Shown here piece after piece: positions 9,001 through 12,000 of a stretch of DNA of 34,811 nt. Numbering within the stretch: position 1 is the stretch's first letter; each line of letters opens with the position of its first letter. Source of the stretch: a virus (Duplodnaviria; Heunggongvirae; Uroviricota; Caudoviricetes); IMG/VR virus record IMGVR_UViG_2526164665_000032, one strand, 5' to 3'. Made by a program: the position numbers.

Positions 9001-12000
9001 CAGTAATGGTAATTATGTAAGCGCCAGTTTCGTTAATAAAACCACCTTGCCCTGCGGTCAGTGCTGCTTCTTCGTTATAAGTAAAAATTACGTTGCTCAT
9101 GCGGCGTTTTCCTTAATTTGATGAACATTATTGATGCCGTAGTAATCACAAACAGTGGCATCGACGAAAGAGAGATCGTTATCAATCTCATTGGAATCAA
9201 ACATTCCCATTGGGGATTTAACAGTGTCTGCACCGTTGTTTTTCGTGGTGAAAAAGAACTGGTCATCGCGGGTAAGAGTGCGAAGAACTATAGTAAACAT
9301 GCCTTCGACAGTGATTTTCTCGTCCAGCATTTTGCCGATAGTCTTCATTTTCACGCGCCCCATAGGGGTTTCTTCGGTGTGCGCAAGAAAATAGACTCTC
9401 AGGTCATCAGGCGCATCCTGTGCAGCCTTAATGACCTCCCATGCGTGGCGGCCTATCTCAGTAAATTTATCAAACGATTTTTCTTCTGAGCGGCGCATAA
9501 ACTCATTGCTCATCACATACTGGAAGTCATCAACAATAACGATTCTTTTTCCGTATTCGTGAGCACGCTTAATTACAGCAACTATTACGTCCCATTTGTC
9601 AGTGGTAACTACGGTTCCTTTTTTGCTCTGGCATCCCATGCAAGCCAGTTTTTTTGATTTAAATGGTAGCGGCTTGCCTATTGGTTTTATAAGTATTGCT
9701 TCCTCTGGATTGATATTTCTCATGCTGGTTGATTTTCCGGTGCCAGACTCACCGAGTATTAATATCGCAGTTCCCATAATTCACCTCAGAATGGTAATTC
9801 GGATGGGGAGGAAAGAAATTCGCGCTCATTCATGCGCTCTCTTTGTGCCTGCCATAAGCAAAGTTGTTTCTTTGATTTATCTCCCGCTTTACGCCAGTAA
9901 CGAGCCTCAGCAATGTGATACTCTCTTTTTAATCGACTTAACTCTGGGGTTTTCGCCAGTTCTACCGGAATCATTTTGACCTCCATTTTCTGTAGGCTTC
10001 TACGGCTTCACGAAACATCTTTTCATCGCCAATAAAAGTGGCGATAGTGAATTTAGTCTGGATAGCCATAAGTGTTTTATCCATTTTTGGGAACTCCTGG
10101 CTGATTAAGTACGTCGATGAGTCGCTTCCATCCGTCACGTAATTTACGGGTGATTCGTTCAAGTAAAGATTCGGAAGGGCAGCCAGCAACAGGCCACCCT
10201 GCAATGGCATATTGCATGGTGTGCTCCTTATTTATACATAACGAAAAACGCCTCGAGTGAAGCGTTATTGGTATGCATATAAAAAGGCCCTCACGCACTG
10301 GAGGGCAAAGAAGATTTCCAATAATCAGAACAAGTCGGCTCCTGTTTAGTTACGAGCGACATTGCTCCGTGTATTCACTCGTTGGAATGAATACACAGTG
10401 CTTATTCGTACTAATAAAATACCCAATTTTCTGTTTCTTGGTTGTGTCCAAAGTTATATTCAATATCTGGTGTTGATGTATCAATATTTTTCATCCCATC
10501 AACAAGAGTTGATACAACAGCCAAATCTTGTTTTATTCTCATTAAATGGTATTTCTTCCGGCGCAATAAACTTTCAATAGCAAGTTTCTTCGTTGGGAAT
10601 GCAAAAGATCTTTCTGCATTTTTTGCTACTTTCTTAATTGCATATCTATTTCTCCTTTGTTTCCATTCCTGTAACCACTGATTTGGTGCTGGTTTAAAAT
10701 TAACAATCCAATGCGCAGGAACCAACCATGCATAATGCTCTGTCTGATGAAAAGCTATATATTGAAGTGCGAATATTTTTATCCCATCTTCTTCAACTGT
10801 CGCCTGGAATCTCCAGAAAACAGGCATTCCATCATGTTCAGTTTCTGATTCAGGAAAAGGTACGCTCCATGATTTTGTCATATCTCACCTCAAATAAGTG
10901 GTTTGCTGCCTAATTTCATTTTCTGGCGACCAACACAAGTCACCTCGCCGTCAGTTGTTTTGATTTCCGGTAGCCTGCCGCGTAAATGGCTACGTTTGGA
11001 AGACATACACCAGTTTCTGGTTGCTTATGTCCAAACTCATTCGCGTACACAATGGCCGCTCGCTCCAGATTGCGTCTGTATTCTTTCTGTTGCCAGATCA
11101 CGTCCTGTGCCATGAACTTAATTGGCTTAGCGTCTTCTATGCGCTCAGGCGTTTCGTGAGTACCTTTAGCCTGAATCTGCGCTCTGCTTAGAGTAGGGCG
11201 GTGTAATACTTCTGAACTTATTGCTTCTTCGCGGGCCAGTACGCCGTTAGCTAATGCCTTTGCCTTTAAACGCTCACGACGACGAGAACGTGAATTGCCT
11301 TTGAACTGAGTTCTGCGTGTCATATAGACCTCCTGATGAACTTTGGTGGTGTGGTAGGTGGGAGACCCATTTCGACCTGTTTCGGCCTACTTCAATTCGG
11401 CAATAGTCCCGCAGGCCTCGCCGCTTTACGTGCGACATATTCCCGTCCATGAACCCTTCACCACACCCCAAAGTTCACTTTGGTTATTGCGCTTTGTCAG
11501 CGCCGTAGATTCATATTCGAATCGTTGTATATTCACCGCCCTGGTGAGTAATGCGTCCTGCTGATGGGTGAACTTTATCGGAGTGATAAATTAATGGCAA
11601 TAGCAAAATGATAAATTCTCTTGGTTTTCAAATATCGTATTGATTCTTATGGTGTTTTATTTTGTTGTAGGAATTCGACAGGATAAATAAAGAGATTTGA
11701 GGGAGATCTGGATTGCGTTGTTTAGCAAGTTGTATCTATTTATTTTTCAACAAATACAATTGGTTATGTGTTTTTAGGTGTGGGGATCGTGAGGCAAAGA
11801 AAACCCGGCGCTGAGGCCGGGTGGGGAATTTCACTTATTACTGTTCGTTTCCATGGGATTGGCCAAGAAATCAAAATAAGGCAGAGTGAACCTACCAAGG
11901 TTTGACATGAGGATAATTTGCTCGGCATATGTTTTTATATAGGGATATGCCATATTGGGAGCAATGGACCTTACCTCATATGATTTTGCCATTTCATGAG

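What the first reader, a model, noticed from the sequence alone, without database searches (positions are those of the whole stretch)
10300..10939. AT-rich unknown gene between N and cIII
The 156-aa ORF at 10411..10881 lies in a clearly AT-richer segment than the flanking N and cIII genes, in the slot where lambdoid phages carry ral/sieB-type lysogenic-conversion or exclusion functions. It has no family I can recognise. A 9-bp inverted repeat (10371..10399) and a terminator-like hairpin (10287..10306) separate it from cIII. It is a candidate horizontally acquired exclusion or anti-defence gene.
Basis: inference. Interest (0 to 1): 0.55.

Follow-up and report, generated by a model that had tools for sequence, protein, structure and literature searches.

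The report
Uncharacterised early phage gene plus PreS sRNA
The AT-rich gene is real, switched on early in lytic growth, and already catalogued in Shiga-toxin phages and HK97 with no known function, while the two hairpins after it belong to the published phage small RNA PreS and its terminator.

Summary
A 156-aa ORF (10411..10881, minus strand) lies between N and cIII and is the most AT-rich stretch of the window (GC 0.35, GC3 0.26).

It is a 538-bp cassette (10402..10939) that sits exactly where lambda carries sieB, orf28 and ral.

The inverted repeat and "terminator-like hairpin" downstream are 96% identical to lambda. They correspond to the published Hfq-dependent sRNA PreS/LPR1 and its terminator tL2a. 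The dnaN-pairing seed is intact.

A deep alignment gave a confident structure model (pLDDT 95.8) with no solved relative. The fold recurs only in uncharacterised phage proteins, including those of virulent phages. No catalytic motif is conserved, but a basic face is.

Best guess: a stand-alone nucleic-acid-binding early factor. A counter-defence role is possible but untested.

The parts
10411..10881 (-). [not shown]
   Evidence: ORF listing; PHROG 1636 match at E 2.7e-112 over the full length; identical or near-identical copies in phage records; purifying selection; structure model with pLDDT 95.8.
10885..10891 (-). Shine-Dalgarno sequence GAGGTGA, 3 nt upstream of the ATG of ORF156.
   Evidence: Read directly from the sequence.
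10402..10939 (.). Exchangeable cassette (ORF156 plus its 58-nt leader). It is bounded by the conserved 3' end of N and by the conserved hairpin/PreS block.
   Evidence: Homology to lambda ends at 10401. Matches to other N types start at the N stop codon, 10940. Other phages carry different cassettes in the same slot.
10364..10401 (-). Its role is unknown; it may define or protect that end (inference).
   Evidence: Inverted repeat found; -20.2 kcal/mol, z = -6.7; sequence identical to lambda and 933W.
10281..10368 (-). Homologue of the lambda Hfq-dependent sRNA PreS (LPR1). The length of about 88 nt is taken from the paper; the ends are inferred here, not mapped.
   Evidence: 96% identity to lambda 33923-34045, between ea10 and ral; body identical to lambda; paper bioRxiv 10.1101/2024.10.31.621285; 12-nt and 11-nt perfect complementarity to the MG1655 dnaN leader, duplex -32.3 kcal/mol; fold z = -2.6.
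10281..10306 (-). Rho-independent terminator tL2a (stem 10306..10287 plus U-tract). It forms the 3' end of PreS.
   Evidence: Terminator scan; the same element is found in lambda at 33931-33952; the PreS paper names it tL2a; HK97 annotates it as a putative terminator.
10940..11323 (-). N antitermination gene of the 933W/H-19B/HK97 type. It is the upstream gene in the same leftward early (pL) operon (context).
   Evidence: Pfam N_peptide, E 2.1e-15; 100% identical to 933W N.
10080..10230 (-). cIII gene (46 aa) with its RNA thermoregulator leader. It is the downstream gene (context).
   Evidence: Pfam Lambda_CIII, E 3.1e-30; Rfam Lambda_thermo, 88.5 bits, at 10172-10230.

Best explanation
The interval holds two separate things.

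(A) A 538-bp exchangeable cassette. It lies in the accessory-gene hotspot of the lambdoid leftward early (pL) operon, in the slot where lambda has sieB, orf28 and ral. It encodes ORF156. ORF156 is transcribed leftward from pL directly behind N, so it is made early in lytic growth or after induction and is repressed in the lysogen.

The protein is a compact, soluble, stand-alone alpha/beta domain. It has long beta-strands at 19-55, a short strand at 83-86 and a 33-residue helix at 98-130. This fold has no solved relative. The family keeps no catalytic constellation, but it does keep a strongly basic face (residues 74-120).

I therefore infer that it works by binding, not catalysis. The most likely ligand is nucleic acid, so it would modulate a host or phage nucleic-acid transaction during early lytic development. 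A host-directed role, either takeover or counter-defence, is the most plausible biological purpose.

(B) Immediately 3' of the ORF, the inverted repeat and the terminator hairpin belong to the conserved PreS/LPR1 small RNA and its terminator tL2a. Published work on lambda shows that this sRNA binds Hfq, pairs with the dnaN leader to raise production of the sliding clamp, and aids phage replication. In this phage PreS would be the 3' end of the ORF156 message.

What is shown: gene reality, identity to catalogued ORFs, cassette edges, sequence identity of the PreS locus, co-expression with N, the confident fold, and the conserved basic face.

What is inferred: nucleic-acid binding, a host-directed role, and the PreS ends and function in this particular phage.
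For: Identity:
- 100% identical to 933W L0079 and phi24B vb_24B_11c; 99.4% identical to HK97 gp45.
- PHROG 1636, E 2.7e-112.
- Present in 598 of 5426 complete E. coli genomes.

Cassette edges and unrelated alternative cassettes in lambda, SPN9CC, HK106 and Sakai Sp5.

Expression:
- Same strand as N, 58 nt downstream, with a strong Shine-Dalgarno sequence. No promoter-like site of its own.
- Genes beyond tL2a are lower before induction: ea10 64, kil 17.

Protein:
- The representative search found 87 relatives of about 130-155 aa at E <= 1e-3.
- The model from the 93-sequence alignment has pLDDT 95.8 and pTM 0.83.
- In the BFVD library of predicted viral protein structures, 12 matches reach E < 1e-3. 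All are uncharacterised phage proteins, several from virulent phages.
- Among 76 distant members only G33, E46, T47, K87 and A101 are at least 90% conserved. The region aligned to 74-120 carries a mean net charge of +9.6 (minimum +5).
- No transmembrane segment.
- Distant members sit in early, recombination or accessory regions of phages and prophages. They have no constant partner gene.

PreS.
Against: - No experiment or homology links the protein to any activity. A basic face also fits binding to an acidic protein or to the membrane surface.
- The structure is a prediction, and I could not inspect its coordinates.
- The AlphaFold database library (afdb50) was unavailable, so a predicted-structure relative with an annotation could exist.
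- The terminator scan also misses lambda tL1. Finding no terminator between N and ORF156 is therefore weak evidence, and co-expression rests mainly on one RNA-seq data set from bulk lysogen cultures.
- The PreS ends, its expression and its Hfq binding have not been shown for this phage.
Confidence: 0.4

Rival explanations
1. ORF156 is a counter-defence protein. It binds and blocks a host immune protein, or sequesters an immune signalling molecule. It would be a functional replacement for the anti-restriction gene ral that lambda carries in this slot.
For: It occupies exactly the ral/sieB slot. It is expressed with N at the very start of the pL operon. It is small, stand-alone, AT-rich and swapped as a cassette. 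Distant homologues lie in early regions next to orphan DNA methylases and an Acb2/Tad1-like gene. Relatives occur in virulent phages.
Against: There is no similarity to Ral (hhalign probability 0.1%) or to any other characterised inhibitor I could test. It is not among the 200 accessory genes screened by Silas et al.; neither its sequence nor its motifs appear in their tables. Position in a hotspot is only circumstantial, because the same slot also holds sieB, which is a defence gene.
Confidence: 0.25
2. ORF156 is a superinfection-exclusion or lysogenic-conversion gene. On this reading it is expressed from the prophage and protects the lysogen, like sieB or rexAB.
Against: That basal level equals that of N (200) and rises about 11-fold by RPKM on SOS induction. 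This is the pattern expected from the spontaneously induced fraction of cells, not from a lysogen promoter. No promoter-like site lies upstream. It has no transmembrane segment, unlike SieB-type proteins. It shows no relation to SieB and has no PADLOC match. Structural relatives exist in virulent phages, which do not form lysogens.
Confidence: 0.07
3. ORF156 is an auxiliary factor for the phage's own programme, not a host-directed weapon. Examples would be a regulator of early transcription or antitermination, of recombination, or of replication.
Confidence: 0.2

Closest known systems
[not shown]
   Same: Same protein (99.4-100% identity), same position directly after N, and the same downstream hairpin, PreS and tL2a block.
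   Different: 933W and phi24B have the 400-bp ea10/ssb gene inserted after tL2a, before cIII. This window, like HK97, lacks it. None of these copies has an assigned function.
Lambda sRNA PreS (LPR1) with terminator tL2a (bioRxiv 10.1101/2024.10.31.621285)
   Same: 96% identity over 125 nt to lambda 33923-34045. The RNA body and the dnaN-pairing blocks are identical. It has a GC hairpin plus U-tract terminator and lies in the pL operon upstream of cIII.
   Different: The terminator loop is 2 nt longer, and the bases just after the stem differ (CTTTTT here, GATTTTTT in lambda). The gene upstream is ORF156 instead of ral, and ea10 is absent downstream. Expression and Hfq binding have not been shown for this phage.
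Lambda ral / orf28 / sieB, and P22-like sieB: the occupants of the same slot
   Same: Same position between N and the PreS/tL2a block. They are exchangeable accessory cassettes of the early left operon.
   Different: No sequence or profile similarity. ORF156 is larger than Ral (156 aa against 66 aa). It is soluble, unlike SieB, and it is on the pL strand with no promoter of its own.
Uncharacterised phage proteins sharing the fold (PHROGs 13631 and 25384; BFVD entries from Erwinia phiEa2809, Achromobacter phiAxp-3, Delftia RG-2014, and Cellulophaga and Tenacibaculum phages)
   Same: Same predicted fold (Foldseek E 2e-7 to 4e-4, TM up to 0.65). They share the core motifs hET.C and K..K...R(F)A(F).T..A...L..RK.
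   Different: Only 12-28% identity. They lack the N-terminal 18 residues and the C-terminal YNFGHN.ETE.W tail of the enterobacterial subfamily. Many come from virulent phages.

Membership tests
PHROG 1636 (phage protein family, function unknown) | Full-length match to the family profile. | tested here: met
   E 2.7e-112, residues 1-156 against profile positions 1-156. All 40 members of alignment A2 match it.
PreS/LPR1 sRNA | At least 92% sequence identity to lambda LPR1, the criterion used in the paper's own conservation survey. | tested here: met
   96% over 125 nt. The body is identical, and only the terminator loop and tail differ. The criterion is quoted.
PreS/LPR1 sRNA | The 3' end is formed by a GC-rich hairpin plus poly-U (tL2a) in the early left operon. 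| tested here: met
   Stem 10306..10287 followed by CTTTTT. The equivalent lambda element is found by the same scan.
PreS/LPR1 sRNA | A seed that pairs with the dnaN leader upstream of the start codon. | tested here: met
   Perfect 12-nt and 11-nt blocks at -47 and -27 relative to the MG1655 dnaN ATG. The predicted duplex is -32.3 kcal/mol. This is computational only.
PreS/LPR1 sRNA | An RNA of about 88 nt and about 68 nt that is made in the lytic cycle and bound by Hfq. | not testable with these tools
   This needs a Northern blot or RIL-seq on this phage. There is no Rfam family for it.
Ral (restriction alleviation) | Sequence or profile similarity to lambda Ral. | tested here: not met
   hhalign probability 0.1%.
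SieB-type superinfection exclusion | Similarity to SieB, membrane segments, and expression from the prophage. | tested here: not met
   hhalign probability 0.5%. The highest 19-residue hydropathy window is 0.56. No promoter of its own was found. The transcript follows N and SOS induction.
Known anti-phage defence systems (PADLOC-DB) | A significant match to any defence-protein model. | tested here: not met
   The only hit is Cas1_II at E 0.018 and 12.4 bits.
Known anti-defence proteins | Homology to a characterised inhibitor, or a counter-defence phenotype. | tested here: inconclusive
   No anti-defence profile library was available. Pfam and NCBIfam gave nothing. The protein is absent from the Silas et al. 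200-gene screen. A phenotype cannot be tested here.
Enzymes (for example HNH or other nucleases, suggested by the GHN motif) | A catalytic residue constellation conserved across the family. | tested here: not met
   [not shown]

The most novel reading that the evidence does not exclude
ORF156 would be the enterobacterial representative of a large phage-only protein family with a previously unseen fold. The family spreads from lambdoid prophages to virulent N4-like, Vi1-like and marine Bacteroidota phages. On this reading the protein is made together with N as one of the very first phage products. It binds host nucleic acid or a nucleic-acid-bound immune sensor to disarm a widespread defence or to take over a host process. 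That would be a new class of early counter-defence or takeover factor, carried by about one in nine sequenced E. coli strains, including most Stx phages.
Probability: 0.25. Interest if true: 0.65.

Novelty: already known. Interest (0 to 1): 0.35.

Why it matters
The gene is carried by 933W-type Shiga-toxin phages and by HK97. It is present in about 11% of complete E. coli genomes. It is one of the most promoter-proximal early genes and is strongly induced by SOS-inducing antibiotics. Its function is nevertheless unknown, and its predicted fold has no solved relative.

If it proves to be a takeover or counter-defence factor, it would bear on how Stx phages spread between strains.

This re-examination also shows that the neighbouring "separator" hairpins are the PreS sRNA. 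Stx and HK97-type phages therefore very probably also boost host DnaN. It also means that any knockout of ORF156 must leave that RNA intact.

Tried and rejected
- Curated family searches. Pfam, NCBIfam and PADLOC gave nothing usable.
- PDB sequence searches. Close and deep profiles gave only chance hits with E above 0.6.
- First structure prediction. The model built from 20 close homologues was poor (pLDDT 60.5) and I discarded it.
- afdb50 was not available.
- Domain fusions. The long hits P0066 and P0080 are repetitive false positives. P0051 only adds a Cys-rich N-terminus.
- Possible identity with Silas et al. orf184, which lies in the same accessory region as ral and triggers gop-beta-cII. 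Rejected: orf184 starts MEALVVERSEDGYW and is a different protein.
- Profile comparisons with other slot occupants. SPN9CC 121-aa ORF, lambda Ea10, HK106 gp42, Ral and SieB all show no relation.
- Literature searches. HK97 gp45, L0079, vb_24B_11c, the accession numbers and phrog_1636 returned nothing on function.
- Rfam has no family for the hairpin region.
- The hairpin in the N-ORF156 spacer is not significant (z = -1.1) and has no U-tract.

Full report
**1. The observation**

- The 156-aa ORF at 10411..10881 on the minus strand is present. It has an ATG start and a strong Shine-Dalgarno sequence, GAGGTGA, three bases upstream.
- It lies 58 nt downstream of a 127-aa N antiterminator at 10940..11323 (Pfam N_peptide, E 2.1e-15). 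It lies 193 nt upstream of cIII at 10080..10217 (Pfam Lambda_CIII, E 3.1e-30). The cIII RNA thermoregulator is recognised by Rfam at 10172..10230.
- The AT-richness is real and extreme. GC is 0.352 and GC3 is 0.255, against 0.488 for the window, 0.492 for N and 0.461 for cIII. No more than 0.2% of 471-bp windows are as AT-rich.
- The terminator-like hairpin is on the minus strand: stem 10306..10287, then CTTTTTAT.
- The inverted repeat is longer than reported. It spans 10364..10401, folds at -20.2 kcal/mol, and has z = -6.7 against shuffles.
- The ORF is a genuine coding gene. Against HK97 it differs at 6 nucleotides but 1 amino acid (dN/dS 0.046). Against homologues of about 63% identity, dN is 0.24-0.28 with dS saturated.

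**2. What the ORF is**

- The sequence is not new. The protein is 100% identical to the hypothetical protein between N and ea10 in phage 933W (L0079, ST933Wp19) and to phi24B vb_24B_11c. It is also identical in many Stx1a and Stx2a phages. It is 99.4% identical to HK97 gp45 and to the H-19B copy.
- It matches PHROG 1636, function unknown, over its full length at E 2.7e-112.
- The DNA occurs in 598 of 5426 complete E. coli genomes, with up to four copies per genome. It is always annotated "hypothetical protein".
- Pfam, NCBIfam, PADLOC and PDB sequence searches give nothing.
- Full-text searches for its names and accession numbers found no functional study.

**3. The cassette and its slot**

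- Window 9982..10276 matches lambda 33228..33522 (kil, cIII and the cIII leader). Window 10277..10401 matches lambda 33923..34045 at 96% identity. That is the stretch between ea10 and ral.
- Phage 933W has the 400-bp ea10 gene inserted exactly between window positions 10276 and 10277. HK97, like this window, lacks it.
- Homology to lambda stops at 10401, nine bases beyond the ORF's stop codon.
- On the other side, phages with other N types share only the last 60-71 nt of N. Their matches begin at the N stop codon, 10940.
- The exchangeable unit is therefore 10402..10939. It replaces the lambda segment that holds sieB, orf28 and ral.
- The same slot holds other, unrelated cassettes elsewhere. 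SPN9CC has sieB plus a 121-aa ORF. HK106 and Sakai Sp5 have an 83-aa ORF. Profile comparisons show no relation between any of these and ORF156.
- This N type occurs in 98 phage records at 80% coverage or more, and ORF156 occurs in 82. The two are usually linked, but not always.

**4. The hairpins are a known small RNA**

- A 2024 preprint (bioRxiv 10.1101/2024.10.31.621285) describes lambda LPR1, renamed PreS.
- PreS is an Hfq-bound sRNA located between ea10 and ral. Its 3' end is the early-left terminator tL2a. It appears as bands of about 88 nt and about 68 nt.
- It is made in the lytic cycle but not the lysogenic one. It activates dnaN translation by pairing upstream of the start codon, and it represses alaS.
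- It supports phage DNA replication, and it is conserved at 92% identity or more in other lambdoid phages.
- The window's minus strand from the hairpin to the U-tract is identical to lambda through the whole RNA body. It differs only in the terminator loop and tail.
- Counting 88 nt back from the U-tract places PreS at about 10368..10281. This starts immediately after the 3' arm of the inverted-repeat hairpin.
- The RNA carries perfect 12-nt and 11-nt blocks complementary to the MG1655 dnaN leader at -47 and -27. The predicted duplex is -32.3 kcal/mol.
- The 88-nt RNA folds better than all 200 shuffles (z = -2.6). With the upstream hairpin included, z = -4.6.
- Rfam 15 has no family for it.
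- The "9-bp inverted repeat" and the "terminator-like hairpin" are therefore parts of a conserved, already described sRNA locus, not simple separators. The role of the upstream hairpin is not known. Defining or protecting the PreS 5' end is my inference.

**5. Expression**

- ORF156 is on the pL strand, directly behind N. I found no promoter-like site of its own.
- The RPKM values are:

| Gene | LB | With SOS-inducing antibiotics |
|---|---|---|

- ORF156 therefore tracks N. It lies ahead of the first strong terminator, and it is induced about 11-fold by RPKM (paper's log2 fold change 5.5) when the prophage is induced. This fits an early lytic gene. It does not fit a gene expressed for the benefit of the lysogen.
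- One caveat applies. The simple terminator scan also fails to find lambda tL1. Seeing no terminator between N and ORF156 carries little weight on its own.

**6. The protein**

- An exhaustive profile search found 87 relatives at E <= 1e-3. Most are 130-155 aa and 20-28% identical. None has a Pfam domain. All fall in PHROGs of unknown function.
- With 20 close homologues the structure model was poor (pLDDT 60.5). With a 93-sequence alignment it became confident (pLDDT 95.8, pTM 0.83).
- The model has long strands at 19-30, 33-46 and 50-55. It has short helices at 57-61 and 66-74, a strand at 83-86 and a helix at 98-130. The C-terminal tail is ordered.
- In the BFVD library of predicted viral protein structures it matches 12 proteins at E < 1e-3. 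All are uncharacterised, and they include proteins of virulent phages of Erwinia, Achromobacter, Delftia, Rhizobium, Cellulophaga and Tenacibaculum.
- Across 76 distant members only G33, E46, T47, K87 and A101 are at least 90% conserved, so there is no catalytic constellation. The segment aligned to residues 74-120 carries a mean net charge of +9.6 and never less than +5. In this protein that segment has 16 Lys/Arg, and its pI is 11.4.
- There is no membrane segment. No informative domain fusion was found.
- Distant members sit in early, recombination or accessory regions of phages and prophages. Their neighbours include methylases, SSB, AAA_24, YqaJ, xis/int and once an Acb2/Tad1-like gene. 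None has a constant partner.

**7. Interpretation**

- The parts I regard as shown are these:
  - It is a real gene that is already catalogued.
  - It is an exchangeable cassette in the ral/sieB slot.
  - It is co-expressed with N early after induction.
  - It is followed by the PreS/tL2a locus.
  - It belongs to a broad phage-only family with a confident fold that has no solved relative.
- The mechanism is inferred. I think it is a non-enzymatic binding protein whose conserved basic face most likely contacts nucleic acid. It would act on a host or phage nucleic-acid transaction early in lytic growth (confidence about 0.4).
- A protein-targeted counter-defence role is the main rival (0.25). 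An auxiliary role in the phage's own programme comes next (0.2). The exclusion or lysogenic-conversion reading is unlikely (0.07).
- The gene was not among the 200 accessory genes screened by Silas et al.. Their orf184, which comes from the ral accessory region, is a different protein.

**8. Verdict**

- The gene is an already known ORF of unknown function. The neighbouring hairpins are an already published sRNA.
- What I add:
  - the exact cassette edges;
  - the recognition of PreS;
  - expression evidence from public data;
  - the family's breadth and its confident fold without a solved relative.
- As a finding the interest is modest. It would be higher if the family proved to be a new class of early takeover or counter-defence factor.

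Noticed in passing
window 10077..10217 (-): cIII is only 46 aa here. A stop codon at 10077-10079 ends it 8 residues earlier than the 54-aa cIII of lambda and 933W. The Pfam match and the RNA thermoregulator leader are intact.
   Followed up: partly
window 11831..13172 (-): Three genes lie between pL and the cI repressor gene: a HigB-family toxin (12885..13172, PF09907, E 4.5e-30), a 218-aa HTH_3 partner (12232..12888), and a 134-aa ORF with no family (11831..12235). They take the place of lambda rexAB or 933W stk. This is the region where lysogen-expressed defence or toxin-antitoxin functions would be expected.
   Followed up: partly
window 10247..10266 (-): A second terminator-like hairpin (AACGCTTCACTCGAGGCGTT followed by TTTCG) lies just upstream of the cIII ribosome-binding site. 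It is identical to one in lambda (L007 694..713). It is possibly another member of the tL2 terminator cluster; that naming is from memory and I did not verify it.
   Followed up: partly
window 23638..23912 and 18823..19021: Rfam gathering-level hits elsewhere in the window: STnc100 (23638-23851, +), the anti-GcvB sRNA AgvB (23853-23912, -), isrK (18836-18912, +), and C4 antisense RNA with its a1/b1 targets (18823-19021, +).
   Followed up: no
window 8513..9777 (-): The early left operon carries an AAA_24 ATPase (9097..9777) and a 195-aa ORF with no family (8513..9100), where lambda and 933W have exo, bet and gam. This phage therefore uses a different recombination module.
   Followed up: no
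window 10940..11010 (-), the 3' end of N: The last 60-71 nt of N are shared at 93-100% identity with phages whose N is otherwise unrelated (lambda variants, HK140, HK629, mEp213, VT1-Sakai). This looks like a conserved recombination linker at the edge of the cassette slot.
   Followed up: partly
L001 4078..4477 (933W), relative to window 10276/10277: The ea10/ssb gene is itself a 400-bp presence/absence cassette, inserted precisely between tL2a and the cIII leader. It is present in lambda, 933W and phi24B, and absent from this window and from HK97.
   Followed up: yes
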